From Spirochaetia bacterium (GTDB taxonomy: Bacteria > Spirochaetota > Spirochaetia > WTKD01 > G963693115), in contig CBDAKK010000003.1 of assembly GCA_965196605.1 (NCBI GenBank), positions 80,821-144,820 of the forward strand: a stretch of 64,000 bases of DNA. Direction: 5' to 3'. The position numbers and the translations under genes are program-made. The notes beneath the pieces were generated by a model that was given only the letters and a program-made list of their open reading frames with translations, searched no databases and was not told where the DNA came from. Shown in pieces: positions 25,261-63,097 of this stretch. How positions within the stretch are numbered: position 1 is the first letter of the stretch; each line of letters begins with the position of its first letter.

Positions 25261-25502
25261 CCCCCACGGGGTAAGACGCGGTATTTGCATATGCAGTGCA
25301 GCGCGGTGTCACTTGCAGTGGGCTAAGACTGATGCCTTTTGTTGCCACGGCGTCAGCGCACTATTGTACCGTTGCAAGTGATTTGAGAAAAAGTTGCAGT
25401 TGAATTGAGAAAATACCGTGTTTTAGCGTGTCTATGTGTGTTTTAACGTGTCTTTACATGGGATTTAATGAGGATAGAGATGTGGTAGTAGAGTGTGTCT
25501 TG

Positions 25503-27184: not shown

Positions 27185-27334
27185 AGTAGCTTGCTACACA
27201 CCGATATAAAGATATGGTGGTAGCAGTGTTACCGTGTGTGGGGTTGTTTGTTAACACCACATAGGGGCTGTGAGTATTCTTTTACAATACTCGCCAGTGG
27301 GTGCTGGTACACCCGCAGGCTGCCACTTTTTTGT

Positions 27335-27742: not shown

Positions 27743-27755
27743 TTTTAGTGCTCCT

Positions 27756-28730
27756 TTATGCAGTGCGTTTCCAAATACGCACGGTGTAATTTACGGGTCT
27801 ATTTTCAGCTGCAGTGGTAACTACTGTAGATACGGAAAATCTATATCCTACTCTATCACTGTGTCTTCTAGATGAGCCATCTGACCAACCCCAGTCGTCT
27901 CCTTGATCTACAATGCTCATGTTTTGTTGCGAGCCATAACCCCATCCCAAATTTGTCTTAAATGCAAATGTAAAATCTCGAATAGCATCAGTCTGTTTTC
28001 CTGTTTGAAATTTTTTTGCGCCATAATAGTCGTTGTCCCTACCCTCGGCACGAAAGAAGCAATCTGCGTATTGACTACTGATGTTTTGCCATGTCATGGT
28101 GTTGCCCCAGAGTTGTTGTGGAGTAGGTTGGTTTGGAAACTGGGTGTAGATAAAGCCGATGGGAATGGCGGAATTTAGTACGTCTTTCTTTGCTTGCGTG
28201 ATGGCGTTTTGTGCTTCGGTTTTTGCTTTGGTGATTTCAGCCATAAGTTCACTTTTTAACTGCTGACGTAGTGAGGTAAGAGAATTCCATCCGTGCGCAG
28301 ATTCACGGGGTGTAAGGTCGATGGTATTGTTTTTCACTTGTGCGAGGACAACATCATTGGCTTGTTTGTCCGTAGACAAAACGACATGCACGGTAGTCTT
28401 ATCCCCGCGTGTTTTCCATGTTTGCTTTTGTTGAATATCGTGCGTTGTGGTAGTATCTACAACCGAGTGACGCAGTACCACGAGTCCGTCTTTTTTATCT
28501 ATTGTAGTCTTGGCGGTGAGCGCGAGCCGTTGTCCATTAGGGGCAACAGCATCTCCCGCACTAATGACAACCTTCCCCGCGCCATCCATGCTCACGGTTA
28601 GCCCCGAGAGTACACCCGTGCCTGTGATAGCGTGCGTACTCTCATGTAGCGCATCCTCGGTATTCTGCTGAAGTATATCGAAGTCGTTGGGGGTAGGTGT
28701 CATACCTTCGTAAAAATGATGTTTTTTCAT
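27756..28730 (-). CDS. Putative phage tail-fibre / receptor-binding protein (P2 gpH position), left arm
   Basis: 324 aa and 100% identical to 30343..31317. The Thr/Gly-rich N-terminal part and a C-terminal region ('IGFIYTQFPNQPTPQQLWGN...CFFRAEG') are reminiscent of tail-collar-type domains. Gene order J-I-H-G. Confidence 0.5.
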   Translation of the reverse strand: MKKHHFYEGMTPTPNDFDILQQNTEDALHESTHAITGTGVLSGLTVSMDGAGKVVISAGDAVAPNGQRLALTAKTTIDKKDGLVVLRHSVVDTTTTHDIQQKQTWKTRGDKTTVHVVLSTDKQANDVVLAQVKNNTIDLTPRESAHGWNSLTSLRQQLKSELMAEITKAKTEAQNAITQAKKDVLNSAIPIGFIYTQFPNQPTPQQLWGNTMTWQNISSQYADCFFRAEGRDNDYYGAKKFQTGKQTDAIRDFTFAFKTNLGWGYGSQQNMSIVDQGDDWGWSDGSSRRHSDRVGYRFSVSTVVTTAAENRPVNYTVRIWKRTA

Positions 28731-29338
28731 AAGTTTCTATCTCCTGTGTTTGTATGTGATTTTTTCGTGTTTTCATTAAAAATAACAAAGCCTACATCGG
28801 GTGGGGTGTTGGTCTCTAGGTAACTTGCTAACTCTGTACGTTTTTCTCTCGTACTGTTTTGTATAGAGAGATAGAGCCCCTCACCGTTCATGATGATGCC
28901 TGTTTTGATGGGTGTGCCGTATGGTGCATGTCCTACGGTGAACGCATCCTTAGGCATTTCTATGATGCGGTATCGGTCTTTAAAATTGCTGTTCATGAAT
29001 TCCGTGAGAGCCTTTCTGGTACCGAGGTACTTCATGGTACGCGATGCTAAGGCTAGACGTTCACGCATACTGGTCTCGCTTTCATTCCCAACTTCTGGAA
29101 GCGCTAATGCGTTCGCATGCATGTTCATGTAGTGTCTATTACCCAAAGAGGGGAAGAACCCGCGAAAGAGAGAACGCGTATCGTATATTAGGATACCGAG
29201 CAGTATGTGGAGTACTACATAAAGTTTTCCGAGTTTGGGGCGAGTTCTGTCTTTTTCAAACGAGTGTTGTGCAACTAAAAGCAAAGTGGCTCCGCTCTGC
29301 AACAGGCGATGTGCCACTACTTTACAAAGCAGAGTCAC
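28727..29338 (-). CDS. Phage tail protein I-like (P2 gpI position), left-arm diverged copy
   Basis: 203 aa. The C-terminal 30 aa are identical to the 29768..30346 product, and the remainder is ~60-75% identical. The 5' end abuts and overlaps the baseplate-J fragment. Confidence 0.45.
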   Translation of the reverse strand: MTLLCKVVAHRLLQSGATLLLVAQHSFEKDRTRPKLGKLYVVLHILLGILIYDTRSLFRGFFPSLGNRHYMNMHANALALPEVGNESETSMRERLALASRTMKYLGTRKALTEFMNSNFKDRYRIIEMPKDAFTVGHAPYGTPIKTGIIMNGEGLYLSIQNSTREKRTELASYLETNTPPDVGFVIFNENTKKSHTNTGDRNL

Positions 29339-29767: not shown

Positions 29768-30346
29768 ATGGCGTTTGAAAAATTTGTAGAAAAACAGATA
29801 GAAAAAAGCTCGTATGAAGGAGACCGGAAGAAAATACAGCTCGGCCGGTTGTATTCGGTGATGCGAGTATTGTGTGCAGTTGTAGCAAGCGATACACGAG
29901 ATGTGTTTCGAGCATTTTTCCCCGCGTTGGGTACTCGCACTTTTATGGACAGACACGCTAAAGCATTAGCGTTACCACACATTAAAAACGAAAGTGACAA
30001 AAGTTTGAGAGACCGCCTTACTGTTGCAACGCATACGATGACCTATCTCGGTACGCGCCAAGCATTCACTCAGTTTATGGAGAGTAATTTTAAGAGTAGG
30101 TGCCGCGTCATTGAAATGCCGAAGAATGCGTTTACTGTAGGACACCTACCCTATGGCACGCCCATTGGCACTGGCATAATTATGGCTGGCGAAGGACTCT
30201 ATGTGTACGTGCAAAACATTACGGCAGAGGAACGCATTGAGCTTGAAAGTTACCTAGAGACCAACACCCCGCCCGATGTAGGCTTTGTTATTTTTAATGA
30301 AAACACGAAAAAATCACATACAAACACAGGAGATAGAAACTTATGA
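29768..30346 (+). CDS. Phage tail protein I-like (P2 gpI position), right arm
   Basis: 192 aa. It immediately follows the J fragment, overlaps the start of the downstream tail-fibre-like gene, and is paralogous to 28727..29338. Confidence 0.45.
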   Translation: MAFEKFVEKQIEKSSYEGDRKKIQLGRLYSVMRVLCAVVASDTRDVFRAFFPALGTRTFMDRHAKALALPHIKNESDKSLRDRLTVATHTMTYLGTRQAFTQFMESNFKSRCRVIEMPKNAFTVGHLPYGTPIGTGIIMAGEGLYVYVQNITAEERIELESYLETNTPPDVGFVIFNENTKKSHTNTGDRNL

Positions 30347-31317
30347 AAAAACATCATTTTTACGAAGGTATGACACCTACCCCCAACGACTTCGATATAC
30401 TTCAGCAGAATACCGAGGATGCGCTACATGAGAGTACGCACGCTATCACAGGCACGGGTGTACTCTCGGGGCTAACCGTGAGCATGGATGGCGCGGGGAA
30501 GGTTGTCATTAGTGCGGGAGATGCTGTTGCCCCTAATGGACAACGGCTCGCGCTCACCGCCAAGACTACAATAGATAAAAAAGACGGACTCGTGGTACTG
30601 CGTCACTCGGTTGTAGATACTACCACAACGCACGATATTCAACAAAAGCAAACATGGAAAACACGCGGGGATAAGACTACCGTGCATGTCGTTTTGTCTA
30701 CGGACAAACAAGCCAATGATGTTGTCCTCGCACAAGTGAAAAACAATACCATCGACCTTACACCCCGTGAATCTGCGCACGGATGGAATTCTCTTACCTC
30801 ACTACGTCAGCAGTTAAAAAGTGAACTTATGGCTGAAATCACCAAAGCAAAAACCGAAGCACAAAACGCCATCACGCAAGCAAAGAAAGACGTACTAAAT
30901 TCCGCCATTCCCATCGGCTTTATCTACACCCAGTTTCCAAACCAACCTACTCCACAACAACTCTGGGGCAACACCATGACATGGCAAAACATCAGTAGTC
31001 AATACGCAGATTGCTTCTTTCGTGCCGAGGGTAGGGACAACGACTATTATGGCGCAAAAAAATTTCAAACAGGAAAACAGACTGATGCTATTCGAGATTT
31101 TACATTTGCATTTAAGACAAATTTGGGATGGGGTTATGGCTCGCAACAAAACATGAGCATTGTAGATCAAGGAGACGACTGGGGTTGGTCAGATGGCTCA
31201 TCTAGAAGACACAGTGATAGAGTAGGATATAGATTTTCCGTATCTACAGTAGTTACCACTGCAGCTGAAAATAGACCCGTAAATTACACCGTGCGTATTT
31301 GGAAACGCACTGCATAA
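30343..31317 (+). CDS. Putative phage tail-fibre / receptor-binding protein (gpH position), right arm
   Basis: Identical 324 aa protein to 27756..28730. Even the embedded antisense ORFs are identical, so the two copies are identical at nucleotide level. Confidence 0.5.
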   Translation: MKKHHFYEGMTPTPNDFDILQQNTEDALHESTHAITGTGVLSGLTVSMDGAGKVVISAGDAVAPNGQRLALTAKTTIDKKDGLVVLRHSVVDTTTTHDIQQKQTWKTRGDKTTVHVVLSTDKQANDVVLAQVKNNTIDLTPRESAHGWNSLTSLRQQLKSELMAEITKAKTEAQNAITQAKKDVLNSAIPIGFIYTQFPNQPTPQQLWGNTMTWQNISSQYADCFFRAEGRDNDYYGAKKFQTGKQTDAIRDFTFAFKTNLGWGYGSQQNMSIVDQGDDWGWSDGSSRRHSDRVGYRFSVSTVVTTAAENRPVNYTVRIWKRTA

Positions 31318-31330
31318 AGGAGCACTAAAA

Positions 31331-31738
31331 ATGAGCACAAAAACATATTACGAACTAGACAAAAATGGACACATCATAGGGCAGTTTGATAGCCCACCAC
31401 CCAAAGACTTAAGTCTTACCATAGCACACACCACACCGCCGCCGCAGGCCATGCTCAAGCCCTCATGGGTCGGCGATACCACCACAGGCACATGGGTAGA
31501 CGCCGCCACGCGTGCAGAGCAGGAAGACTGTATTGACGGAGAAACTGACGCTGCCATTCAAAACTGGGCACGCGAAAAAGGCAAAAACGAAGCCTACTAC
31601 ATAAACTGCGGCATACGCGTGTGCATAAACAAAATCACGGATACCACCAATATTGACTACCGCCACTACCACGAATACCGTGCATATGTAGACGCTCAAA
31701 AGAAACTTAGTAAAGCAAAAAAAGACGCGCTACCATAA
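31331..31738 (+). CDS. Small protein in the tail-fibre-assembly (gpG) position, right arm
   Basis: Identical 135 aa protein to 27335..27742. Confidence 0.4.
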   Translation: MSTKTYYELDKNGHIIGQFDSPPPKDLSLTIAHTTPPPQAMLKPSWVGDTTTGTWVDAATRAEQEDCIDGETDAAIQNWAREKGKNEAYYINCGIRVCINKITDTTNIDYRHYHEYRAYVDAQKKLSKAKKDALP

Positions 31739-31888
31739 ACAAAAAAGTGGCAGCCTGCGGGTGTACCAGCACCCACTGGCGAGTATTGTAGAAGCATACT
31801 CACAGCCCCTATGTGGTGTTACAACACAACCCCACACACGGTAACACTGCTACCACCATACTGTTATATCGGTGTGAGGCAGGTTACT

Positions 31889-32749
31889 ATGTACGGAGTA
31901 TTTGAACTTTTTATGAAAACACCACTTACCTATTACGGAGGTAAACAGTCTATGACACGCACCATCGTGCCACGACTGCACCCTCACACGTGCTATGTCG
32001 AGCCCTTCTGTGGCGGCGCGGCCGTCTTTTTCGCAAAAGAACCCGCGCCCATTGAAACACTCAATGACACCAACGCTGAAATTACAAACTTCTTTTCAGT
32101 CGTGCAAACAAAAAAACAGGAACTTACATCTCTTGTTGTAAGCACATCTCATAGTCGCAGAGCTCACAGCGATGCTCGTGTTGTCTATCAGAACCCACAC
32201 CTCTTTAACCCCGTAAAACGCGCATGGGCTGTGTGGGTCTTAGCGCATCAATCATTCGCACACGACTTCCATGGTGCCTTCAGGTTCTCTCGCTCCGTGC
32301 GTAGCACAACAAGTAACGCACTCGCGCGCAAACGAGATACCTTCGATGTCCACACACTCGCACAACGCATCAAGTATGTGCAGTTAGAATGTGACGATGC
32401 ACTCACCATCATACAACGCTATGATACTCCGCACACGCTTTTCTACTGCGACCCACCATACTTTAATGCACATATGGGACACTACGGAGGATACACCGAA
32501 CAAGACTTTTACGCACTCCTGAAAAGTCTTAGTGCTATACAGGGAACATTTCTCTTAAGTTCGTATCCCTCGGACACTCTGCAGAGTTTCACCTCAAAAC
32601 ACGGATGGTACACACAGTGTTCTCGGAGACGTATTGTTAATTCGCCTCAAGGTCATACTAAATCAAAGACCGAAGTACTTACCGCAAACTACAATACAGA
32701 GTTCATCGCACAAGAGTATGCACTCAAACCATGTGAGGTGGCTGCATGA
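31889..32749 (+). CDS. DNA adenine methyltransferase, Dam/D12-class (copy A', right arm)
   Basis: Same motifs as 26324..27184 ('EPFCGGAAVFF', 'DPPYFNAH'). The start is chosen at 'MYGVFELFMKTPL', matching the left copy. Confidence 0.8.
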   Translation: MYGVFELFMKTPLTYYGGKQSMTRTIVPRLHPHTCYVEPFCGGAAVFFAKEPAPIETLNDTNAEITNFFSVVQTKKQELTSLVVSTSHSRRAHSDARVVYQNPHLFNPVKRAWAVWVLAHQSFAHDFHGAFRFSRSVRSTTSNALARKRDTFDVHTLAQRIKYVQLECDDALTIIQRYDTPHTLFYCDPPYFNAHMGHYGGYTEQDFYALLKSLSAIQGTFLLSSYPSDTLQSFTSKHGWYTQCSRRRIVNSPQGHTKSKTEVLTANYNTEFIAQEYALKPCEVAA

Positions 32750-33570
32750 AGACGCCAGTGAGCTATTACGGAGGTAAGCAAAATCTCGTCAAAGAAATCG
32801 TCCCACTCCTACACCCACACACCTGTTACGTAGAACCCTTCTGCGGCGGTGCCGCTATCTTCTTCGCAAAGAAACCTTCAGAAATGGAAACACTTAACGA
32901 CACAAACGGTGAGCTTATGAATTTCTACCGCATAGTACAGCAAGACTTTGTCTCACTCGAAAAACAAATACAAATCACGCTTCACAGCCGTATGGCACAC
33001 CACGATGCGCTTGTTACATACAACAACCCGCACCGCTTCTCGCCCCTTGAGCGTGCGTGGGCAGTGTGGGTTTTGTCTCAAGAATCGTTCTGCTCCATGC
33101 TTGATGGCTCTTTCGGATACGACATGAGCGGCACTACTGCCCGCAAAATAGCACGCAAACGCGATACATTCTCTTACCACTACGCACAGCGACTCCAGCA
33201 TGTACAGCTCGAATGTACAGACGCGATTAAAATCATACGCACCTACGACAGTCCTCATACTCTCTTTTACTGCGACCCACCGTATTACAACAGCGACTGT
33301 GGACACTATGACGGATACACCATAGAAGACTACACCGCACTCCTCAAGGCACTTAGTGTCATTGAGGGAAAATTCCTGTTAAGTTCTTATCCATCACCCG
33401 TGCTGGAAGAGTGCATACAGAAACACCGCTGGGATACAAAGCGCATGAAATTCACGGTTTCTATAGGAACTGGTACTCGGGACAAGGAAAAAACCGAGGC
33501 GCTTACCGCAAATTACACACTGGAAAAACAATACGATTTAGTCGATTTGATGCAGTTCCGAGAAGAGTGA
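32746..33570 (+). CDS. DNA adenine methyltransferase, Dam/D12-class (copy B', right arm)
   Basis: 274 aa. It differs from 25503..26327 by about 5 residues. Confidence 0.85.
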   Translation: MKTPVSYYGGKQNLVKEIVPLLHPHTCYVEPFCGGAAIFFAKKPSEMETLNDTNGELMNFYRIVQQDFVSLEKQIQITLHSRMAHHDALVTYNNPHRFSPLERAWAVWVLSQESFCSMLDGSFGYDMSGTTARKIARKRDTFSYHYAQRLQHVQLECTDAIKIIRTYDSPHTLFYCDPPYYNSDCGHYDGYTIEDYTALLKALSVIEGKFLLSSYPSPVLEECIQKHRWDTKRMKFTVSIGTGTRDKEKTEALTANYTLEKQYDLVDLMQFREE

Positions 33571-34018
33571 CAAAATACACTCTATTACCCCCCCATTAAA
33601 TCCCATCTAAAGACACGTTAAAACACATATAGACACTCTAAAATACGGTATTTTCTCAATTCAACTGCAACTTTTTCTCAAATCACTTGCCCCCTACAGC
33701 ACAAAGAGTTGTAGTATATAAAACTCATTTGTATATGCTACAACTCTAATTGCTTGGTTTATCTCATTTTTTTAGCGGAATTTATCTCGCGCGGGTATAC
33801 ATAATTTAACTCCTGTAAAATATTAATTTTTATGTATGTACAGTATAACATAATTACAAATTAATTAAATTAATATTTCATTTGTGAAATTTATGTGAGA
33901 ATAAATTATGAGACTGCCAGCATAGCTTCGCCAGCAATGATGACGCACAAATAACTTGCAGCCTGCAGGTTTGGGTGGCGTTGTCGTTTCTAGGCTGTAA
34001 AGCAACTCACTTCAGCGC

Positions 34019-43129: not shown

Positions 43130-44285
43130 CGCTCACGCTGGTTAATGAAGACGCACTATTAAGAGCTAAAGCAGTCATGAGCCTAGGGCTCATGTGTGTA
43201 CTGGGCGGCGGTGCGTGGGGCGGCACGGTAGCTTTAGGCGCGTGAGGGTGCTTTGCAAGTGTTAAGCAGTCTGCACTGGCGCACAGTGTTTCTTCCGCGG
43301 CGCCCCACCTTTGGAGTGACAGCAGTCATTCGCCTACGGCTCATGTGTGTACTGGGCGGCGGCGCTTGGGGCGGCACGGTAGCTTTAGGCGCGTGAGGGT
43401 GCTTTGCAAGTGTTAAGCAGTCTGCACTGGCGCACAGTGTTTCTTCCGCGGCGCCCCACCTTTGGAGTGACAGCAGTCATTCGCCTACGGCTCATGTGTG
43501 TACTGGGCGGCGGTGCGTGGGGCGGCACGGTAGCTTTAGGCGCGTGAGGGTGCTTTGCAAGTGTTAAGCAGTCTGCACTGGCGCACAGTGTTTCTTCCGC
43601 GGCGCCCCACCTTTGGAGTGACAGCAGTCATTCGCCTACGGCTCATGTGTGTACTGGGCGGCGGTGCGTGGGGCGGCACGGTAGCTTTAGGCGCGTGAGG
43701 GTGCTTTGCAAGTGTTAAGCAGTCTGCACTGGCGCACAGTGTTTCTTCCGCGGCGCGGCTAAGGCGCGCAAAGGTGCCTTGCCTAGGTAGCGCTGCTTAA
43801 ACGCGTAAGGGTGACTTTGTGAGTGCAAGCAGTCTGCTGGCGCACCGTGTGTTTTGGGCGCCGCGGCTTGGACGCGAGGTTTGCTTTAACGCGTGTAAGT
43901 TACTTTGCATGTATAAGCTGCCTGCGTCCCGCAGTCTGTATTCCGCGCTGCGGCTAAAGCCGCAAAGTAGCTTTGCGTAGGTGGCGCTGCTTAAACGCGT
44001 AAGGGTGCTTTGTGAGTGCAAGCAGTCTGCTGGCGCACCGTGTGTTTTGGGCGCCGCGGCTAAAGCGCGCAAAGCTGCCTTGCCTAGGTGGCGTTGCTTA
44101 AGCGCGTAAGAGTTGCTTTGCGAGTGTAAGCAGCCTGCGCTGACGCGCCGTGTGTTTTGGGCGCCGCGACTTAGGCGCGAGGTTTGCTTTAACGCGTGTA
44201 AGTTACTTTGCATGTATAAGCTGCCTGCGTCCCGCAGTCTGTATTCCGCGGCGGTGCGTGGGGCGGCACGGTAGCTTTAGGCGCG
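43130..44285. repeat. Compound tandem-repeat array: about 4 copies of a ~153 bp unit (43175-43790), then degenerate ~100-200 bp units
   Basis: The unit 'cagcagtcattcgcctacggctcatgtgtgtactgggcggcggtgcgtggggcggcacggtagctttaggcgcgtgagggtgctttgcaagtgttaagcagtctgcactggcgcacagtgtttcttccgcggcgccccacctttggagtga' recurs with a period of ~153 bp. A second family ('gcgctgcttaaacgcgtaagggtgctttgtgagtgcaagcagtctgctggcgcaccgtgtgttttgggcgccgcgg') recurs in 43790-44280. Confidence 0.85.
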
Positions 44286-44295
44286 TGAGGGTGCT

Positions 44296-44523
44296 TTAGG
44301 AATAAACGGTGAGCGTACCATTTTCGCTCACGCTTACTTCTCCGCTTGCTTTGTCTATGCTAGCGCCCGTACCGCTTACGCTGTATTCAATGGCTCGCGT
44401 ATCTTCAGCATTGCTTTTTTCTTCCGCTGCCGTCTGAGTGAACCTTTGTTGCGTCTTAGTCACAGAAAGCGTGCATACAATACCGCTATAGCAAATTGCA
44501 TGCTGCGCTAGCGCTTTAGCCAC
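44296..44523 (-). pseudogene. Detached duplicate of the 5' coding region of the NHL/Ig lipoprotein gene (gene fragment)
   Basis: 44300-44460 is near-identical to 42640-42800. The encoded peptide 'TQQRFTQTAAEEKSNAEDTRAIEYSVSGTGASIDKASGEVSVSENGTLTV' equals residues ~60-110 of the 747 aa protein. No signal peptide and no continuation. Confidence 0.7.
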
Positions 44524-44595
44524 ACAAGACGTTCATCTAACACAGGGAGTTGTGGCGACACTCCCCACACACAAAGAGCAATAGCCCCCTTAGTG

Positions 44596-45729
44596 TTATT
44601 TGAATTTCGGCCATTTACTTTTATCTTTGTTCATTTTTGTCACACTGTTAAAAATATTATCCCACCTCGTCACACTATCTACCTTCCAGCCGCTAAGGTC
44701 TTGGTTGAACGCTGTAGCACGAGCAAACATCCATGCCATATTCGTGACTTTGGACGTGTCCCAGCTACCAATGCCTTGGTTGAAAGATGTAGCACTATAA
44801 AACATGTCTTCCATATTCTTTACCTGAGACGTGTCCCAGTTACTAATGTCTTCGTTAAAAGCTATAGCCTTAGAAAACATATATGACATATCCCTGACCT
44901 GAGAGGTGTTCCACTGACCAATGTCTTGGTTGAAAGATGTAGCACTATAAAACATGTCTTCCATATTCTTTACCTGAGACGTGTCCCAGTTACTAATGTC
45001 TTCGTTAAAAGCTATAGCCTTAGAAAACATATATGACATATCCCTGACCTGAGAGGTGTTCCACTGACCAATGTCTTGAGTGAAAACCCCAGCCCCCCAA
45101 AACATGCCTACCATATCCGTGACCTGAGACGTGTTCCAGCACTTTATATCACCATTGAATTTAGATTCCCCTTGAAATAAACGATTCATATTAGTAATAG
45201 CTGATGTATCGATGTGATTGAGATTAGGACTAGGAGTCGCTGAGGTAATAGCCTTGTTAAGCAATGCTTGTAATGCTACCTTGTTTTGTGGATGCTGAGT
45301 CTCTGTTGCACCACATGAATTCTTCCAGATTACCGACAAGCTTATATCAGAAGTAATTGCTGTGTTCTCATCATGCTTTTGCTTGTTATGTTCGAAGCGT
45401 TCTAGCGTACGGGTTATTCCATTGACCACACTATACGTAAGTTTGCTCGTTATACCAACATCTTTTAAGCTTTGACCAGCTTTGAGGATAAGGGTATTGT
45501 CTGTAGACCCTCCCGTTAAGGTACCTCCATGTAATGCAAAGGTTACGGTAAATGAGCTGGTGGCTAATTTATTCATGCCAATGGTGTTTAAGGGGCTTGA
45601 AACTAAGTTTTGAGCTGCATCATCTAATAATTGATCGCATCCCCCAAAGGTAAAAGTTATTAAAGCAAAGGTTGTTACAACGATTACTGCGCGAAATGCT
45701 TGTATGTATTTATGATTACTGTGTTTCAT
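44596..45729 (-). CDS. DUF285 repeat lipoprotein (paralog 2) with a distinct N-terminal domain and an exact 150 bp internal tandem duplication
   Basis: Lipobox 'FTFGGC'. Repeats of 'FNEDISNWDTSQVKNMEDMFYSATSFNQDIGQWNTSQVRDMSYMFSKAIA' occur twice identically (nt 44770-44920 equals 44920-45070). The 5' leader resembles that of the 23077 gene. Confidence 0.85.
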   Translation of the reverse strand: MKHSNHKYIQAFRAVIVVTTFALITFTFGGCDQLLDDAAQNLVSSPLNTIGMNKLATSSFTVTFALHGGTLTGGSTDNTLILKAGQSLKDVGITSKLTYSVVNGITRTLERFEHNKQKHDENTAITSDISLSVIWKNSCGATETQHPQNKVALQALLNKAITSATPSPNLNHIDTSAITNMNRLFQGESKFNGDIKCWNTSQVTDMVGMFWGAGVFTQDIGQWNTSQVRDMSYMFSKAIAFNEDISNWDTSQVKNMEDMFYSATSFNQDIGQWNTSQVRDMSYMFSKAIAFNEDISNWDTSQVKNMEDMFYSATSFNQGIGSWDTSKVTNMAWMFARATAFNQDLSGWKVDSVTRWDNIFNSVTKMNKDKSKWPKFK

Positions 45730-56540: not shown

Positions 56541-56858
56541 GAAGATGTACGGTATATTTTTGAGAGCGCAATAGTAAAGAAGCTCTGTCGATATAGCCTC
56601 TCTACCATTGCCCATGAGCCCGAGAAAAACACTGGTGTTTTTTGCACAGGCACTGCCACGGGGTTTTGTGTGCCCGCACAGGCTTGTAAGGCATGACTGA
56701 GGAGGGTTGCCCACACCAAAGGCAAAGGTGACTCTGTTAACATAGCTTCACTATTGGAAAACTACAATGCGCTAGATATATCAGAGTTTCATATTGTATA
56801 ATTTGTTTAAGGAGGATTGTTAGCCAATTTTTAGCGTAGGTGGCACATCCCAATATGT

Positions 56859-58508
56859 ATGAAAGCAAACGAAGCAAGTTTATTAACCATCATTCAAAAA
56901 CGTGCCCAATTTATTATTCCCATATATCAGCGGACTTATAGTTGGCAATATAAACAATGCAAAAAATTATTTGAAGATATTCTAAAAGCATCGGAATCTC
57001 AAGGACACTTTGTAGGTTCAATCGTTTACTTTGAGCCCGATATTCATACCGCAACAGAAATACAAAAGTATTTAGTAATTGATGGACAACAAAGAGTAAC
57101 TACCGTCACTTTATTAATTGCAGGCTTGGTTCGATTTATTGAAGAGAATCCAGACTGCCAAATAGATACCACATCAGAAAAGTTAAGGAATTATTATTTA
57201 TGTAATCCTGCAGAAAAGGACACGAATTTATACCTCAAATTACTATTGACGAAAAAAGATAAAGAAACCTTAGAAAATCTTGTAACCAATAAGCCTTTAC
57301 CTCACGAACGATCTAATAAGATAGTTGAAAATTATGACTATTTCTACAAACAAATCAATAACAATAACATCAAGAAAATATACCAAGGATTGCAAAAATT
57401 ACTAGTAATTGATGTTGCACTAGAAAAGGGAAAAGATAATCCGCAGTTAATCTTCGAGAGTTTGAACTCCACAGGTTTAGACTTATCACAAGCAGACCTT
57501 ATTAGAAACTATATTTTAATGAGACAAGAGAATACATTTCAAAAATATCTCTATGAAAAATACTGGTATCCTATGGAACAAAGCTTTGGAGAGGAGATAG
57601 ATAAATTACCTTGGTTTATGCGTGATTATTTAACTATGAAGTTACATAACATTCCAAAAACAGAAGAGGTTTATGACAAGTTTAAAGCTTATTTCCATAG
57701 CAAGAAGGATGCAGGAATAGAAACTATAGTACGTAATCTTTATGAATATTCTCAATATTATATTGCCATTGTTTTAGGGAAAGAAAAAGATACAACGCTA
57801 CAATCTCTATTTAGGGAAATTACTACATTAAGGATGGAGACATCCTATCCTTTTTTATTGGCAGTTTATAAAGATTATGAAGATAAGGTTATAACATTAC
57901 ATGAGTTTATAGAAATAGCACACTTAGCTAAAAACTATGTATTTAGACGTGCTATTTGCGGCATTCCCACGAATAGTTTAAACAAAACATTTGCCATATT
58001 CTATAAAAGCATTAAAAAAGACACCTATTTAGAATCGGTAAAAGCAACATTTTTACTCATGGAGGGGTATAAAAGATTTCCTAATGATGCAGAGTTTACA
58101 AGAGAATTTCAGGTAAAGGATATATATAACTTTAGGTCAAGAAACTATCTATTAAAATCCTTAGAAAACTTTAAGCGCAAAGAATTAGTAAATGCTGAAA
58201 ACTATACCATTGAGCATATAATTCCACAAAACAAAGAAATCTCTCAAGCATGGCAACAAGAATTAGGCGAAAACTGGAAAATAGTAAGGGAAAAATATTT
58301 GCACACATTAGGTAATATAACACTCACTGCGTATAATTCCGAATTGTCAGATAGACCATTTATCGATAAAAAAAATATAAAAGGAGGCTTTAACGAGAGT
58401 CCTTTATTTCTCAATAAATCCGTTCGTAAAGCTGAAGTTTGGAATGAAAAAGCAATTAACAACAGAGCAGAAGAATTATCTCAAAGAGCATTACAAGTAT
58501 GGCCGTGA
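56859..58508 (+). CDS. GmrSD-like type IV (modification-dependent) restriction endonuclease homolog: DUF262 (ParB-like NTPase) + DUF1524 (His-Me finger)
   Basis: DUF262 motifs 'IPIYQRTYSW' and 'VIDGQQRVTTVTLLI'. DUF1524 motifs 'TIEHIIPQ' and 'LGNITLTAYNSELSD'. AT-rich relative to the flanks. Confidence 0.8.
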   Translation: MKANEASLLTIIQKRAQFIIPIYQRTYSWQYKQCKKLFEDILKASESQGHFVGSIVYFEPDIHTATEIQKYLVIDGQQRVTTVTLLIAGLVRFIEENPDCQIDTTSEKLRNYYLCNPAEKDTNLYLKLLLTKKDKETLENLVTNKPLPHERSNKIVENYDYFYKQINNNNIKKIYQGLQKLLVIDVALEKGKDNPQLIFESLNSTGLDLSQADLIRNYILMRQENTFQKYLYEKYWYPMEQSFGEEIDKLPWFMRDYLTMKLHNIPKTEEVYDKFKAYFHSKKDAGIETIVRNLYEYSQYYIAIVLGKEKDTTLQSLFREITTLRMETSYPFLLAVYKDYEDKVITLHEFIEIAHLAKNYVFRRAICGIPTNSLNKTFAIFYKSIKKDTYLESVKATFLLMEGYKRFPNDAEFTREFQVKDIYNFRSRNYLLKSLENFKRKELVNAENYTIEHIIPQNKEISQAWQQELGENWKIVREKYLHTLGNITLTAYNSELSDRPFIDKKNIKGGFNESPLFLNKSVRKAEVWNEKAINNRAEELSQRALQVWP

Positions 58509-58928
58509 CCAGATTTAGATGAGAATATTTTACGCATCTATAGGCCATCTGAAATAATAAAAGACACTATTGAATATTCAATACAGCAGTATGAATATTT
58601 ACAAAACGATATGTTGGACTTGTATCGCTCATTTGAAAAAAAAGTACTAAATATTGATGCCACGATAAAAGTTGAGTTTACAAAAAAATATATAGCCTTT
58701 AAGGCACAAACAAACTTTGTTAACGTTATTCCTCAAAAAGCAAGACTACGTTTAAACTTAAATATAAATTTCGATAAAATCCAAGACCCAAAAAAACTTT
58801 GTACAGATATAAGCAATACCGGAAACTGGGGTAATGGTAATGCAGCCGTATATGTATCTCATGCATCAGAACTAGATGATATAATTGAACTCACAAAACA
58901 AGCCTTTGAAGAGCAAATGAATGATTAG
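58509..58928 (+). CDS. C-terminal extension ORF, in frame with the GmrSD-like gene and separated from it by a single TGA (105 aa from the first ATG at 58611)
   Basis: No stop codons occur between the TGA at 58506-58508 and 58928 in the same frame ('…LQVWP*PDLDENILRIYRPSEII…MLDLYRSFEKKVL…'). Confidence 0.5.
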   Translation, partial: PDLDENILRIYRPSEIIKDTIEYSIQQYEYLQNDMLDLYRSFEKKVLNIDATIKVEFTKKYIAFKAQTNFVNVIPQKARLRLNLNINFDKIQDPKKLCTDISNTGNWGNGNAAVYVSHASELDDIIELTKQAFEEQMND

Positions 58929-59079
58929 AAATGTAAAGCTTGGAACTGCCACAGTCGCCTTTTTCTAACCTTGTGTTTCTCTAACCCTTTGGGTTTAGGT
59001 TGACGGTAGGTACTGGCACTTGCGCTTATCAAGCACCGTCAATACATAAAGCGTATGTTGTGTACAATGAGCGTAAAGC

Positions 59080-60471
59080 ATGTGCGCATTAGTAGCAAAT
59101 AAAGAGACTTATGACTTTTTGCACCGCGGGTGTACGCGCGTGGTGCGTGACCCCCTATGGACTGCCATAGGCTACGACGAGGCCTGCTCTGCCTTGCTAG
59201 AGAGCCCCACGCTCATGAAGCTGCACAACATTCGTCAGTTGGGCCCCACGGCGCTTGTGTACCCCGGCGCCACTCACACGCGCTACAGCCACAGCCTTGG
59301 CGTCATGCACCTTGCGCGCCTTGTGCTTTTAGAACTCATGAAGCGCAAACACTGCCCGCGCATAAGCGTAGCAGAGGCCAAGGCATTTTTGGCGGCGGCG
59401 CTCCTCCACGACGTGGGGCACTTCCCCTACACGCATAGCCTCAAAGAACTACCGCTACCACCCCATGAGGAAATAAGCGCGGCGCTTATAAGCGGAAACG
59501 GGGACGTATTAGAAGAGAGTCTTGAAGAGGGCGCAGCGGCGCGGCTTAAGACTCACGTAGAAAAAAGTCCGCTCCCTGCCCTCCTTACACAGTGGGGAGT
59601 AGCGCCTCCATACGCCGCCGCAATAGTCTCCAACAAACTACACGCAGCGCATGAAGATGAACGCGCACTCTTAACCATGTTCCGCACCATTCTTTCAGGC
59701 GCACTGGACCCCGACAAGCTTGACTACCTGTGTCGCGATGCGTTTTTTTGCGGCGTGCCCTACGGCATACAAGACGTAGACTTTGCCATACGTTCCATAG
59801 ACATAGATGAGAACATGCGCATATGCTTGAAGTCTTACATGCCCACAGAACACATTTTGTTTTCAAAGTACCTTATGTATAAAAGCGTTTATTGGCACAG
59901 CAAGGTGCGCGCCGCCACAGCCATGGTGAAACACGCGCTCTTTCACGCAATTACAAAAACGGTAATTATGCCGCATGAACTTTTGTTTTTAACGGATGAG
60001 GAATTTCACACCCTGTGTAGAGCGCGCGTTAAAAACTGTGAAAAACTTGCGCTTGTAGATGCCGTGCGCTGCGGTAGTTTGCACGCATGCCTAGCTTCAT
60101 GTGACGTAACACAAGAGATGCACGCCTTGGAAAGCTTGCCCCTACGCAGCGCTTGTGAGGCTGCACTCTCACAGCATTTGGGAATACCACATGTTATAAT
60201 AGACTTACCGGAGCGCATAGCCTTTGAAAGCCCTTATGACTCTCCGCCAGTGCCCATTGAAATTGCAAGCGCCCAAGCGCATCACACTGAAAAACATGAA
60301 AACCACAACGCTACTGTTTTTGACCAGCACACCGCCGCTCACTTTAGCACGGTGCTACGAAGACTGCGCGTGTTTGTTCCGCAAAGCCCTAAAGCAGAAG
60401 GCCTCATGCACAATGTACACATAGGGCACATAGTACAAAACGAGATACAAGAAGCGCTTGGAGGAGCGTAA
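59080..60471 (+). CDS. HD-domain phosphohydrolase, dNTP triphosphohydrolase (Dgt/SAMHD1)-like
   Basis: 'THTRYSHSLGVMHLARL' and 'LLHDVGHFPYTHS' HD motifs. The true start may be at a later Met (MKLHNIRQ). Confidence 0.75.
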   Translation: MCALVANKETYDFLHRGCTRVVRDPLWTAIGYDEACSALLESPTLMKLHNIRQLGPTALVYPGATHTRYSHSLGVMHLARLVLLELMKRKHCPRISVAEAKAFLAAALLHDVGHFPYTHSLKELPLPPHEEISAALISGNGDVLEESLEEGAAARLKTHVEKSPLPALLTQWGVAPPYAAAIVSNKLHAAHEDERALLTMFRTILSGALDPDKLDYLCRDAFFCGVPYGIQDVDFAIRSIDIDENMRICLKSYMPTEHILFSKYLMYKSVYWHSKVRAATAMVKHALFHAITKTVIMPHELLFLTDEEFHTLCRARVKNCEKLALVDAVRCGSLHACLASCDVTQEMHALESLPLRSACEAALSQHLGIPHVIIDLPERIAFESPYDSPPVPIEIASAQAHHTEKHENHNATVFDQHTAAHFSTVLRRLRVFVPQSPKAEGLMHNVHIGHIVQNEIQEALGGA

Positions 60472-60475
60472 GGCC

Positions 60476-62335
60476 ATGTCAAACACACCAACAATACGCA
60501 TACTCGGTGAATACACGGCAAAGCAAATTGCCGCAGGTGAGGTTATAGAGCGCCCGTCCTGTGTGGTGCGCGAGCTTATAGACAACAGCATTGACGCGGG
60601 TTCTCACAACATTGAAGTACAACTAAAAAACGGCGGGCTTGATAGCATATGCGTCTCCGACGACGGGCGCGGCATGAGCGCTGAAGACCTTGCGCTCTGC
60701 TGCTATTCACACGCAACTTCCAAAATACAAAGCGCTGAAGACCTGCTTGCACTGAGCAGCATGGGCTTTAGGGGTGAGGCGTTGGCAAGCATAAGCGCTA
60801 TAAGCAAGACCATCATTACGAGTTTTGATTCCTTAAGCAAACGCGCGCACGAAATTACGGTTGAGGGTGACAAGTCCTCAGAAGTGCATGAGGCTGTTCA
60901 CAACAAGGGCACGCGCATATGCATTCAACAACTTTTTGGTGCCATACCCGTACGCAAAAAATTTCTCGCCTCAATTTCCGCAGAGCGCATGCGGGTGAAA
61001 AACATCATGGTAGAAAAGGCAGCCGCATTCCCCAACATTGCCTTTACGCTTAAAGAAGGTGTTAAAACCATTGTGCGCATACCGCGCGAAGACGCCTTTA
61101 CTCGTGCGGTGCGTGTCAGTAACCAAGAAGACTCACGCATGTTTGTGTGGTATGAAGACGCGCAAGAAGGGCATGCACCTTTTGCAAAAGAAGAACCCCA
61201 CACAAGCCACGGAGCACCGCGCATGCAAGCCGCGCTTGGGCTTACCGAAATTGCTACAAGAACGAGAAAGCACATTCACTTGTACGTCAACCAGCGACCC
61301 GTGCGTTCTTTTCAACTGGCGCAGGCGGTAGAATACGCATACAAAGACATTATTCACACGGGTGCGTTTCCACAAGCGGTAGTTTTTTTAAGCATAGCGC
61401 CGTCTGAGGTTGACGTAAACGTACACCCAAGCAAGCAAGAGGTGCGCATAAAACCCATGGCGCAGGTGCGCTCGCTTATAATACGCAGCGTTGCCTCAGC
61501 CTTAGAAAGCCAAGCGCGCGCGCTACCGCAGTACAAAGTAGTTAGCAATGATGCTCCAGCGTCTACCAAAATTCAAGACATATTCAAAGGCGAAGAAAAA
61601 CCCGCTCTGCATTTTGCAAAAACGGCGCACACAAGCCTACCAAAAAAACACAGCGCTTCTGCGCACAGGCACATTGCCCCTCGTTCCTTTAGCACCACAC
61701 GCAACAGCGCGCACGCAGTAAACGCAGCATCCATATCGGCGTTGAGTGAGCGCGCTGCGCCATACAAAACCGAAGCACCAGTGAGAGAAGAAGACGCATT
61801 TTTTATAGGCTGCGCATTTGCAAGCTACGCCGTTTTTGAAGTGAAGACAGAACTACTTTTTTTGGACTTTCATGCAACTCATGAGCGGCAGCTTTTCGAT
61901 GCTCTTTTAGAAAAACCACAACCACAGCCGCTGGTTGTGCCGGTGCCGCTTGTTTTGGACATGGCTGAGGAAACACGGACATTAGCACAAGAAGCCTACA
62001 AGCACATAGGCATTGTTATAGAAGAGCAGAAAAAAGATGAAGAACCACACTACGCACTTTCACAAGTGCCACAAGCCCTGTATACGCGCGCTACTAGCAT
62101 TGCCGAGTTGATAGACAGTACGGACTACGCGGCAGAGGGCGTGAACCTAGAGCTTTTTGCCCGCAAGGCCTGCAAGGGCGCGGTAAAGGCGGGAGACCAC
62201 ATAGACGCACAAAATGCCTACGCGCTACTTTCTTACGCACAAAAACTTGAGCGACCACGCTGCCCTCACGGCAGACCCTTGTGGGCCAGCATAGCAAAAT
62301 CAGCCCTTGACAGCATGGTAGGCAGAACAGCGTAA
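60476..62335 (+). CDS. mutL: DNA mismatch repair protein MutL
   Basis: GHKL ATPase N-terminus 'AAGEVIERPSCVVRELIDNSIDAG' and 'FRGEALASI'. C-terminal dimerisation domain. RBS GAGGAG upstream of the ATG at 60476. Confidence 0.9.
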   Translation: MSNTPTIRILGEYTAKQIAAGEVIERPSCVVRELIDNSIDAGSHNIEVQLKNGGLDSICVSDDGRGMSAEDLALCCYSHATSKIQSAEDLLALSSMGFRGEALASISAISKTIITSFDSLSKRAHEITVEGDKSSEVHEAVHNKGTRICIQQLFGAIPVRKKFLASISAERMRVKNIMVEKAAAFPNIAFTLKEGVKTIVRIPREDAFTRAVRVSNQEDSRMFVWYEDAQEGHAPFAKEEPHTSHGAPRMQAALGLTEIATRTRKHIHLYVNQRPVRSFQLAQAVEYAYKDIIHTGAFPQAVVFLSIAPSEVDVNVHPSKQEVRIKPMAQVRSLIIRSVASALESQARALPQYKVVSNDAPASTKIQDIFKGEEKPALHFAKTAHTSLPKKHSASAHRHIAPRSFSTTRNSAHAVNAASISALSERAAPYKTEAPVREEDAFFIGCAFASYAVFEVKTELLFLDFHATHERQLFDALLEKPQPQPLVVPVPLVLDMAEETRTLAQEAYKHIGIVIEEQKKDEEPHYALSQVPQALYTRATSIAELIDSTDYAAEGVNLELFARKACKGAVKAGDHIDAQNAYALLSYAQKLERPRCPHGRPLWASIAKSALDSMVGRTA

Positions 62336-62611: not shown

Positions 62612-63097
62612 ATGGCGCTTGCTACTGTCACCACAAGACAAAAAACTGCTCCTCTCGGAAGTCCCAAGAATACAAAAATAAAGGCTCCCAAAGCTCAAGC
62701 AAAATCAGTAGTAAGCAGTCTGCTAGCCCCAACAGTAAGCCCGTATGACTTTCTTTCTGAACGTATTACGGGGATTGATATAAAAATAGACGCAACAAAA
62801 AATGAACTTTCTGAGCGCATTACAAGCGTTGACAAAAAAATAGACTTAGTAGAAAAAAACTTGAATACTCGCATTGATGCACTTGACGAGAAATTAACTA
62901 CCCGTATTGATGGGTTAGAAAAAAACATGAATACCCGCATTGATGCAACGAATATCCGCATTGATGGGTTAGAAAACAGCATGAATACGCGTATTGATAG
63001 CCTTGAAAAAAGCATGAGTAGATCATTTACGATGTTGACTATTGTCATGGCTTTTGTGGGAATTGGGCTTGCGCTACTTCAAATATTTGGCAACTAA
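62612..63097 (+). CDS. Coiled-coil 11-residue-repeat protein with a C-terminal TM anchor (paralog of 9705..9995)
   Basis: Repeats 'NTRIDALDEKL / TTRIDGLEKNM / NTRIDATNIRIDGLENSM / NTRIDSLEKSM' followed by 'LTIVMAFVGIGLALLQIF'. Confidence 0.5.
   Translation: MALATVTTRQKTAPLGSPKNTKIKAPKAQAKSVVSSLLAPTVSPYDFLSERITGIDIKIDATKNELSERITSVDKKIDLVEKNLNTRIDALDEKLTTRIDGLEKNMNTRIDATNIRIDGLENSMNTRIDSLEKSMSRSFTMLTIVMAFVGIGLALLQIFGN

What the first reader, a model, noticed from the sequence alone, without database searches (positions are those of the whole stretch)
56859..60471. Defence-type pair next to mutL: GmrSD-like type IV restriction protein split from an in-frame C-terminal ORF by a single TGA, plus a dGTPase-like HD protein
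- The DUF262+DUF1524 protein (GmrSD architecture) ends at a TGA at 58506-58508.
- The next 140 codons are open in the same frame and contain the annotated 105 aa ORF. One stop codon therefore separates a potential ~689 aa fusion.
- This could be a recent nonsense mutation (inactivated, possibly self-toxic nuclease), programmed readthrough, or a genuine two-gene split.
- The region is AT-rich compared with mutL, suggesting horizontal acquisition.
- Directly downstream is an HD-domain dNTP-triphosphohydrolase-like gene. dGTPase/SAMHD1-like enzymes are known anti-phage nucleotide-depletion effectors.
- The 105 aa domain is not one I can assign. It may be a specificity or regulatory module.
Basis: partly seen in the sequence, partly recalled or inferred. 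Interest (0 to 1): 0.6.

Follow-up and report, generated by a model that had tools for sequence, protein, structure and literature searches.

The report
Restriction gene cut by one stop codon
A foreign, AT-rich anti-phage restriction gene (GmrSD type with a DUF5655 tail) in a spirochaete genome is cut in two by one base change to a stop codon, and the HD gene beside it is an ordinary conserved spirochaete gene, so this is a routine truncated defence gene.

Summary
ORF 56859-58508 (549 aa, GmrSD_N + GmrSD_C) ends at TGA 58506-58508. The next 139 codons are open in the same frame up to TAA 58926-58928.

- **Tail domain:** it can be assigned. It is Pfam DUF5655 (54 bits, cut-off 24).
- **Ancestral state:** all 119 best homologs (56-73% identity, mostly Bacteroidota) are single proteins of about 690 aa with all three domains. 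They cover 100% of the fused query.
- **The change:** the two closest homologs whose DNA I read have TCA (Ser) where the window has TGA. DNA similarity to four homolog genes (68-76%) runs straight through the stop.
- **Genetic code:** TGA ends 12 of 46 long ORFs in the window, so it is a normal stop here. No SECIS-like hairpin follows it, and no homolog shares the stop.

The simplest reading is a single TCA→TGA nonsense change, or a base-call error, in a horizontally acquired one-gene island (31% GC against 47% for the window). The cut falls on a natural module boundary. Many relatives, and the profiles built for the tested defence protein HEC-06, end there.

The HD protein is SAMHD1/EF1143-like and matches the host in GC. 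It is present in 27 spirochaete genomes without a GmrSD neighbour, next to or near mutL in seven. It is not a defence partner.

The parts
56750..58950 (+). AT-rich single-gene island (about 2.2 kb, GC about 0.31), inserted between an aldose-epimerase-like gene and the HD-mutL pair
   Evidence: GC profiles. This is the lowest GC of 46 long ORFs. Nucleotide similarity to four homolog genes is confined to 56852-58930. No integrase, tRNA or convincing flanking repeat was found.
56859..58508 (+). GmrSD-like type IV restriction core ORF, 549 aa, ending at the premature TGA
   Evidence: Pfam GmrSD_N at aa 10-219 and GmrSD_C at aa 408-542. End-to-end matches to PADLOC 'Orf5' PDLC02693 (E 5e-172, 2-542 of 543) and HEC-06 PDLC04157 (E 8e-69).
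57081..57095 (+). DGQQR motif (aa 75-79), the NTP-hydrolysis motif of the DUF262 domain
   Evidence: Motif located. Its role was shown by mutation in HEC-06 (bioRxiv 10.1101/2024.01.29.577857) and described for DndI (PMC11662687).
58212..58226 (+). EHIIP motif (aa 452-456), the HNH/His-Me finger nuclease motif of the DUF1524 domain
   Evidence: Motif located. It corresponds to EHICP of HEC-06, where E471A and H472A abolish defence.
58506..58508 (+). In-frame TGA. The two closest homologs whose DNA was read have TCA (Ser) here
   Evidence: Codon alignment: window CCG TGA CCA against L001 and L029 CCA TCA CC(A/T). Ser is the usual residue in the closest homologs shown, and the column is a sense codon in all 119 homologs.
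58509..58928 (+). 139 in-frame codons after the stop: a linker of about 32 aa plus a DUF5655 domain (aa 33-135, bases 58605-58913)
   Evidence: PF18899 at 54.4 bits against a cut-off of 24. PADLOC PDC-S18, C-terminal part, E 2e-24. AlphaFold model with pLDDT 87. All 20 columns invariant in alignment A1 (43 sequences, window row included) carry the family residue in the window.
58611..58928 (+). Annotated 105-aa ORF. It starts at an ancestral internal Met codon and is most likely a gene remnant rather than an independent gene
   Evidence: It is the first start codon after the stop. The 20 nt upstream (TATGAATATTTACAAAACGAT) contain no GGAGG-like Shine-Dalgarno stretch. The Met lies in the DML/EML motif shared by the homologs.
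59080..60471 (+). Neighbour that is not part of the island: a SAMHD1/EF1143-like HD phosphohydrolase, a conserved spirochaete gene ahead of mutL
   Evidence: HD + HD_assoc_2 domains. PDB relatives 2hek, 2q14, 2o6i and SAMHD1. GC 0.52. Homologs in 27 Spirochaetota genomes, with mutL directly downstream in L002, L003 and L007.

Best explanation
**What it is.** A spirochaete acquired a single-gene defence module by horizontal transfer from a Bacteroidota-like donor. The module is a GmrSD-like type IV restriction enzyme: a DUF262 NTPase with a DGQQR motif, a DUF1524 HNH nuclease with an EHIIP motif, and a C-terminal DUF5655 domain, about 689 aa in all.

**What happened.** One C→G change turned a Ser codon (TCA) in the linker between the nuclease and DUF5655 into TGA. 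TGA is an ordinary stop in this genome.

**Consequence.** Translation now ends after residue 549. The product is the complete two-domain core without its DUF5655 tail. The 139 codons after the stop, including the annotated 105-aa 'gene', are most likely an untranslated remnant.

**Is the core still active?** The cut falls on a natural module boundary. About 30 of the 150 representative relatives end there, as do the profiles built for the tested defence protein HEC-06. The core may therefore still work as a restriction nuclease, perhaps with altered targeting or regulation.

**The HD gene.** It is an unrelated, vertically inherited SAMHD1-family phosphohydrolase paired with mutL.

**Shown:** the architecture, the ancestral fusion, the one-base difference, the foreign composition, and the conservation of the HD gene.
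**Inferred:** that the tail is not expressed, that the core keeps activity, and that DUF5655 binds DNA.
For: - All 119 best homologs are 686-718 aa with GmrSD_N + GmrSD_C + DUF5655 and cover 100% of the fused query. Only the window's own protein is 549 aa.
- The stop column is a sense codon in every homolog and is Ser in most of the closest homologs shown.
- The codon is TCA in L001 and L029 against TGA in the window.
- Nucleotide similarity of 68-76% to four homolog genes runs without a break from 56852-56859 to 58918-58930, through the stop.
- TGA ends 12 of 46 long ORFs in the window.
- The gene is 0.31 GC against 0.466 for the window. The relatives are Flavobacteriia/Bacteroidota, while the host's HD protein has only spirochaete relatives.
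- No ATG, GTG or TTG lies between the stop and 58611, and no Shine-Dalgarno stretch precedes 58611.
- There is a mild sign of relaxed constraint after the stop. The window departs from the family residue at 10 of 63 columns that are ≥90% conserved after the stop, against 17 of 265 before it (Fisher p = 0.02). It is the strongest outlier among 120 sequences.
- The core can stand alone. It matches 543-569-position PADLOC profiles end to end. About 30 of 150 representative relatives are 549-591 aa with nothing after GmrSD_C.
Against: - Reads cannot be inspected, so a base-call or assembly error (an intact gene) is not excluded.
- Overall divergence of the tail is not accelerated. The ratio of C-part to N-part divergence is 1.28, against 1.32 ± 0.15 for the family.
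- The tail has no further stop or frameshift, and it carries the family residue at all 20 columns invariant in alignment A1. The lesion is therefore very recent, or the tail is still under selection.
- Pro-UGA-C is, from my own knowledge of E. coli work, a weak termination context. Some full-length protein could still be made.
- No second isolate or metagenome copy was found for comparison.
Confidence: 0.72

Rival explanations
1. Sequencing or assembly error. The true codon is TCA, and the genome encodes an intact 689-aa GmrSD-DUF5655 enzyme.
For: The difference is a single base. The tail is fully open, carries the family residue at all 20 columns invariant in alignment A1, and has diverged at the normal family rate.
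Against: The site (GGCCGTGACCAG) is not in a homopolymer or repeat, where errors concentrate. Substitution errors are rare in finished consensus sequence. The tail has an excess of changes at conserved positions.
Confidence: 0.12
2. Functional gene fission. The 549-aa nuclease core and a separately translated DUF5655 protein of about 105 aa work together in trans.
For: The 105-aa ORF begins two residues into the first helix of the predicted DUF5655 fold, so it would encode almost the whole domain. The stop sits in a flexible linker (pLDDT below 50 at tail residues 13-19). The tail carries the family residue at all 20 columns invariant in alignment A1. The slot after GmrSD_C is modular in relatives, which carry DUF5655, DUF4268, DUF4268+DUF4357, an unassigned extension, or nothing.
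Against: None of the 119 closest homologs is split. The ATG is an inherited internal Met codon with no Shine-Dalgarno stretch, and it lies 102 nt past the stop. Promoter-like matches in the region are at chance level, 12 found against 10.6 expected. The 34 linker codons are also intact, which a two-gene arrangement does not require.
Confidence: 0.08
3. Stop-codon readthrough, programmed or leaky, gives a mixture of 549-aa and 689-aa proteins.
For: From my own knowledge, the context CCG-UGA-C (Pro before the stop, C after it) is among the weakest RF2 termination contexts in E. coli. The frame stays open.
Against: The stop is unique to this sequence among 120 relatives. The surrounding context is simply inherited (CCA TCA CCA in L001). 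No stimulating structure lies downstream (MFE -11.5 kcal/mol, z = -0.68). Basal UGA leak is typically a few percent at most.
Confidence: 0.05
4. GmrSD and the HD dNTPase form a two-gene defence pair that combines restriction with nucleotide depletion.
For: The two genes are adjacent on the same strand, 151 nt apart. The HD protein belongs to the SAMHD1/dNTPase superfamily. Some members of that superfamily are anti-phage.
Against: HD is 0.52 GC and the island is 0.31. HD homologs occur in 27 Spirochaetota genomes with no GmrSD within 8 kb. mutL is downstream in L002, L003 and L007, and within about 6 kb in L004, L026 and L028. None of the four GmrSD-DUF5655 homolog genes whose contigs I examined has an HD neighbour. 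HD scores 16 bits against a cut-off of 400 for the anti-phage dGTPase model, and 22.6 bits, local only, for PADLOC dGTPase.
Confidence: 0.03
5. The TGA encodes selenocysteine, or is a sense codon under an alternative genetic code.
For: From my own knowledge, some spirochaetes decode Sec.
Against: TGA ends 12 of 46 long ORFs, and the conserved genes are intact under table 11. No SECIS-like hairpin follows the stop. The column is variable (Ser, Ala, Arg, Glu, Tyr) and lies in a linker. The window has no tRNA-Sec.
Confidence: 0.01

Closest known systems
HEC-06 (GmrSD-like single-gene antiphage protein; Payne et al., bioRxiv 10.1101/2024.01.29.577857)
   Same: The 549-aa core matches three of the four HEC-06 PADLOC profiles end to end (E 8e-69 to 2e-64). 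It has the DGQQR and EH(I/V)xP motifs whose mutation abolishes HEC-06 defence. The relatives whose contigs I examined lie beside RM and other defence genes.
   Different: The best PADLOC match is a different profile group, 'Orf5' PDLC02693 (E 5e-172). The ancestral form of this gene carries an extra C-terminal DUF5655 that the HEC-06 profiles (558-569 positions) lack. Here that tail is cut off by a stop codon.
GmrSD / Eco94GmrSD / BrxU (type IV restriction enzymes that depend on DNA modification)
   Same: The same DUF262 + DUF1524 architecture and a single-chain fusion. From the literature, these enzymes have NTP-stimulated nuclease activity against modified phage DNA (PMC4437046, PMC8565348).
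   Different: The relationship is distant, and neither appears among PDB sequence hits at E ≤ 0.01. The substrate of this clade is unknown. The extra C-terminal domains described for the family in 2015 were DUF4268, DUF4357 and DNA_binding_1, not DUF5655 (PMC4619093).
DndI (PDB 9JFL) and SspE (PDB 6JIV): phosphorothioate-sensing DUF262-HNH nickases
   Same: DndI is the closest solved structure by sequence (profile E 4e-21 over positions 10-552). It has the same DGQQR NTPase plus HNH arrangement.
   Different: Those enzymes work with dnd or ssp modification genes. No such hit appears among the genes listed beside the homologs. The window's neighbours were read from the ORF list only. Neither enzyme has DUF5655.
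DUF5655 (PF18899) and PADLOC candidate PDC-S18
   Same: The tail scores 54 bits against DUF5655. It also matches the C-terminal 108 positions of PDC-S18 (E 2e-24).
   Different: No function is known, and only one paper in the library mentions the domain. The only structural lead is a weak resemblance to E. coli YjbR (2fki: Foldseek E 0.056, probability 0.91, TM 0.43-0.48). From my own knowledge, YjbR is a 'double-wing' putative DNA-binding fold.
SAMHD1 / EF1143 family HD dNTP triphosphohydrolases (for the neighbouring gene)
   Same: HD + HD_assoc_2 domains. PDB relatives 2hek, 2q14 and 2o6i (EF1143) at E 1e-25 to 1e-29, and SAMHD1 at 1e-16. His, His-Asp and Asp stretches (YSHSLGVMH, LHDVGH, DKLDYLCRD) that I read as the H..HD..D signature are visible in the translation.
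   Different: It is not the Dgt-type anti-phage dGTPase (16 bits against a cut-off of 400). It is conserved across spirochaetes beside mutL. Its activity has not been tested.

Membership tests
GmrSD-like type IV restriction enzymes | N-terminal DUF262/GmrSD_N (ParB-like NTPase) domain above Pfam's gathering score | tested here: met
   PF03235 at 126.3 bits against 33.2, aa 10-219.
GmrSD-like type IV restriction enzymes | C-terminal DUF1524/GmrSD_C (His-Me finger / HNH) domain above the gathering score | tested here: met
   PF07510 at 75.7 bits against 23, aa 408-542, entirely upstream of the TGA.
GmrSD-like type IV restriction enzymes | DGQQR NTP-hydrolysis motif and (D/E)H nuclease motif intact | tested here: met
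   DGQQR at aa 75-79 and EHIIP at aa 452-456. These are the motifs defined.
GmrSD-like type IV restriction enzymes | Modification-dependent DNA cleavage and protection against phage | not testable with these tools
   This needs biochemistry and phage challenge.
GmrSD + DUF5655 fusion clade (about 690 aa) | One continuous reading frame through all three domains | tested here: not met
   TGA at 58506-58508 interrupts the frame. All 119 closest homologs are continuous.
DUF5655 (PF18899) | Score above the gathering cut-off | tested here: met
   54.4 bits against 24, at residues 33-135 of the 139-aa tail.
Programmed UGA recoding (selenocysteine or readthrough) | Stop codon conserved in homologs, with a downstream stimulatory hairpin (SECIS) | tested here: not met
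   None of the 119 homologs has a stop in this column. The fold of 58500-58580 is no better than shuffles (z = -0.68).
Anti-phage dGTPase (NF041026; PADLOC dGTPase) | Whole-protein score above the curated cut-off | tested here: not met
   16.4 bits against 400, and TIGR01353 at 26 against 152. PADLOC dGTPase gives 22.6 bits over aa 65-120 only.
SAMHD1/EF1143-like HD phosphohydrolases (the neighbouring gene) | HD domain plus HD_assoc_2 region, with homology to solved family members | tested here: met
   PF01966 at 34.7 against 22, and PF19276 at 38.4 against 23.1. PDB hits 2hek, 2q14, 2o6i and SAMHD1. dNTPase activity cannot be tested here.
Defence island or defence gene pair (GmrSD + HD) | The partner genes co-occur in relatives and share a foreign origin | tested here: not met
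   No co-occurrence in 27 HD loci or in the contigs of four GmrSD homolog genes. GC is 0.52 against 0.31.

The most novel reading that the evidence does not exclude
The position after the GmrSD nuclease domain may be a swappable 'sensor slot'. Relatives fill it with DUF5655, DUF4268, DUF4268+DUF4357, unassigned domains, or nothing. DUF5655 would be a YjbR-like double-wing DNA-binding module that sets target specificity or restrains the nuclease. On this reading, the split in this genome is a viable fission in which the detached DUF5655 still acts in trans, or its loss retunes the enzyme for a new host.
Probability: 0.08. Interest if true: 0.45.

Novelty: new member of a known kind. Interest (0 to 1): 0.15.

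Why it matters
- **For annotation:** the 549-aa and 105-aa entries should be read as one interrupted GmrSD-DUF5655 gene. The HD gene should not be counted as a defence gene because of where it sits.
- **For biology:** the locus is a small, clean example of a single defence gene moving between phyla (Bacteroidota-like donor to a spirochaete) and then being truncated exactly at a domain boundary.
- **Open question it touches:** what the uncharacterised DUF5655 tail contributes to GmrSD-type enzymes. It is present in 79 of 150 representative relatives. Comparing this natural truncation with a repaired TCA allele would be a ready-made experiment.

Tried and rejected
- **Alternative genetic code:** rejected. 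TGA ends 12 of 46 long ORFs.
- **Selenocysteine or a structured readthrough signal:** rejected. No hairpin better than shuffles and no tRNA in the window.
- **Mobile-element borders:** no convincing flanking direct or inverted repeats, integrase or tRNA target. How the island inserted is unknown.
- **A second copy of the locus, to check the TGA:** an exact-pattern scan of metagenome contigs with N at the mutated base found nothing. The window's own protein could not be located on a contig by look-up.
- **Empty-site comparison in a close relative:** not possible. The nearest HD homologs are only 47-50% identical, and their upstream genes are not syntenic.
- **dN/dS on the tail:** not attempted. 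At about 75% nucleotide identity, synonymous sites are probably saturated. I used relative divergence and departures at conserved columns instead, and these give mixed signals.
- **Independent promoter or Shine-Dalgarno for the 105-aa ORF:** promoter-like hits are at chance level, and no Shine-Dalgarno stretch is visible.


Full report
**1. The observation**

ORF 56859-58508 encodes 549 aa and ends at TGA 58506-58508. Read in the same frame, the next 139 codons (PDLDEN...EEQMND) stay open until TAA 58926-58928. They contain the 105-aa ORF that starts at ATG 58611. Both pieces are on record as separately called proteins on one 209-kb contig.

The region is strongly AT-rich. The gene is 0.31 GC, while the other 45 long ORFs range from 0.40 to 0.61 and the whole window is 0.466. 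GC drops at about 56750 and recovers at about 58950.

**2. What the pieces are**

The 549-aa protein has GmrSD_N (DUF262, 126 bits) and GmrSD_C (DUF1524, 76 bits). Its DGQQR motif lies at aa 75-79 and its EHIIP motif at aa 452-456. These are the motifs whose mutation abolishes defence in the validated GmrSD-like protein HEC-06. DGQQR is also the key NTP-hydrolysis motif described for DndI.

The protein matches PADLOC profiles end to end: 'Orf5' PDLC02693 (E 5e-172, positions 2-542 of 543) and HEC-06 PDLC04157 (E 8e-69). The closest solved structure by sequence is DndI, 9JFL.

It is Pfam DUF5655 (PF18899), at 54 bits against a cut-off of 24, covering residues 33-135 of the 139-aa tail. It also matches the C-terminal part of the PADLOC candidate PDC-S18 (E 2e-24).

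An AlphaFold model built on 43 aligned sequences is confident (pLDDT 87). It shows a floppy linker (residues 13-19 below pLDDT 50), then a helix, five strands and a long C-terminal helix. Foldseek against the PDB gives only a weak match to E. coli YjbR (E 0.056, probability 0.91, TM 0.43-0.48), with DUF1801 and frataxin-like α/β folds further down the list. From my own knowledge, YjbR is a 'double-wing' putative DNA-binding fold. A DNA-binding role for DUF5655 is therefore a lead, not a result. The paper library contains almost nothing on DUF5655.

**3. One gene or two?**

I searched with the fused 689-aa sequence. All 119 best homologs (56-73% identity) are single proteins of 686-718 aa carrying GmrSD_N + GmrSD_C + DUF5655, and each covers 100% of the query. 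The only 549-aa entry is the window's own protein.

In the alignment, the stop column is a sense codon in every homolog. It is Ser in most of the closest homologs shown, and Arg, Glu, Ala or Tyr further out. It sits between an invariant Trp two positions before and a nearly invariant Pro right after.

- **DNA level:** the two closest homologs whose DNA I could read have CCA TCA CC(A/T), where the window has CCG TGA CCA. One C→G change is enough.
- **Continuity:** nucleotide similarity of 68-76% to four homolog genes runs without a break from 56852-56859 to 58918-58930, straight through the stop. It ends at the borders of the fused ORF.

The ancestral state is therefore a single fused gene. A conserved two-gene system is ruled out.

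**4. Is the TGA read as something else?**

- TGA ends 12 of 46 long ORFs in the window, several at ATGA-type operon junctions, and the conserved genes are intact under the standard code.
- The 81 nt from 58500 fold no better than shuffled sequence (z = -0.68).
- The window holds no tRNA.
- The stop is not shared by any relative.

Programmed recoding is not supported. One caveat comes from my own knowledge: Pro-UGA-C is a poor termination context in E. coli, so a low level of leaky full-length protein cannot be excluded. That context is simply inherited from CCA TCA CCA.

**5. Is the tail decaying?**

The signals are mixed.

- **Against decay:** the ratio of tail divergence to core divergence is 1.28 for the window, against 1.32 ± 0.15 for other pairs in the family. 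There are no further stops or frameshifts. All 20 columns invariant in alignment A1, which includes the window's own row, carry the family residue in the window.
- **For decay:** at columns that are ≥90% conserved in the family, the window differs at 10 of 63 after the stop and at 17 of 265 before it (Fisher p = 0.02). That is the highest tail value among 120 sequences. The replacements are also somewhat less conservative (mean BLOSUM62 of 0.4 against 1.2).

This fits a fairly recent lesion with the first signs of relaxed constraint. It does not exclude a sequencing error or continued selection.

No start codon lies between the stop and ATG 58611. That ATG is an inherited internal Met codon (the DML motif), and no Shine-Dalgarno stretch precedes it. 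Promoter-like matches in the region are at chance level.

**6. What does the truncation do?**

The stop falls in the linker, after the complete nuclease domain. I looked at 150 representative relatives (36-61% identity):

| What follows GmrSD_C | Representatives |
|---|---|
| DUF5655 tail | 79 |
| Nothing (proteins of 549-591 aa) | about 30 |
| DUF4268, DUF4268+DUF4357, or an unassigned extension of about 150 aa | about 30 |
| Shorter or intermediate-length entries | remainder |

The HEC-06 profiles also end at this boundary. The 2015 survey of the family already noted that extra domains sit in the variable C-terminal part, and it named DUF4268 and DUF4357 (PMC4619093).

The 549-aa product therefore equals a naturally occurring architecture and may well keep its activity. 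This argues against the idea that the mutation disarmed a toxic nuclease. Which DNA the enzyme attacks is unknown. Members of this superfamily sense modified cytosines (GmrSD, BrxU) or phosphorothioate (SspE, DndI).

**7. Origin and context**

Named relatives are Flavobacteriia and other Bacteroidota: Crocinitomicaceae, Psychroserpens, Nonlabens, Arcticibacterium, Aequorivita, Zunongwangia and Owenweeksia. Their genes are also 0.30-0.35 GC.

On the contigs of the four homolog genes I examined, the fused gene sits beside defence genes with varying partners:

- **L001:** type I RM genes plus a Piwi/pAgo gene.
- **L029 and L030:** MmeI/Eco57I-like type IIG enzymes, and L029 also carries conjugation genes (TraG, TraO).
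- **L031:** a PLD-SNF2 helicase plus an Eco57I-like methylase.
- **L032:** type I RM genes.

None of these has an HD neighbour. The gene therefore looks like an autonomous one-gene module.

The host is a spirochaete with no close relative in the databases. The best HD homologs are only 47-50% identical, and every hit that carries an organism name, 23 of the 120 listed, is from Spirochaetota. I found no integrase, tRNA or flanking repeat at the island borders.

**8. The HD gene**

The protein has HD + HD_assoc_2 domains. Its solved relatives are 2hek, 2q14, 2o6i (EF1143) and SAMHD1. It belongs to the SAMHD1-like dNTPase family in the broad sense.

- It scores only 16 bits against the 400-bit cut-off of the anti-phage dGTPase model.
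- Its GC (0.52) matches mutL (0.51).
- Homologs occur in 27 spirochaete genomes. mutL lies directly downstream in L002, L003 and L007, and within about 6 kb in L004, L026 and L028. No GmrSD gene is nearby in any of them.

The adjacency is an accident of where the island landed.

**9. Verdict**

This is a horizontally acquired GmrSD-DUF5655 type IV restriction gene interrupted by one nonsense substitution, or a base-call error, at a domain boundary. It sits next to an unrelated conserved HD-mutL pair.

It is a new member of a known kind and of low general interest. The one mildly interesting point is the uncharacterised DUF5655 module, whose role this natural truncation could help to test.

Noticed in passing
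window 25374-28970 and 30103-33690: A 3.6-kb inverted duplication (93.7% identity) with about 1.1 kb between the arms. Each arm carries three ORFs, and one 324-aa ORF is 100% identical between the arms. It could be an invertible segment or a recent duplication.
   Followed up: partly
window 43170-43756, 43692-44250, 44693-45139 and 23437-24722: Tandem repeats offset by about 150 bp (86-98% identity) at 43170-45139, and repeats of 78-86% identity within 23437-24722. They appear to lie inside or near long ORFs and probably encode repeat proteins.
   Followed up: no
window 62612-63097: A 161-aa ORF in an AT-rich stretch, with repeated 'NTRIDxLEKxM'-type 11-residue units and a C-terminal hydrophobic helix. 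It looks like a membrane-anchored coiled-coil protein.
   Followed up: no
L001 3942-8073: In the closest homolog's contig, the 690-aa GmrSD-DUF5655 gene starts 8 nt after a 683-aa Piwi-domain (prokaryotic Argonaute) gene. That gene follows a type I RM hsdR gene and a YgjP-like gene. The pAgo and GmrSD genes may form one operon.
   Followed up: no
window 59080-62335; L002, L003, L007: A SAMHD1-like HD phosphohydrolase lies directly upstream of mutL in this genome and in its nearest spirochaete relatives. In the window the HD stop overlaps the longest mutL ORF. This hints at a housekeeping link between dNTP-pool control and mismatch repair.
   Followed up: partly
window 59000-59045: An inverted repeat, TTGACGGT ... 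ACCGTCAA, with a loop of about 28 nt, lies between the end of the island and the HD start codon. It has no T-run, so it does not look like a terminator. It may be a regulatory site.
   Followed up: no
representatives P0138, P0142, P0144, P0146, P0158, P0162, P0175 and P0193: Many GmrSD relatives of 700-800 aa carry C-terminal extensions of 150-250 aa that match no Pfam family. These are unclassified modules in the same slot that DUF5655 and DUF4268 occupy.
   Followed up: no
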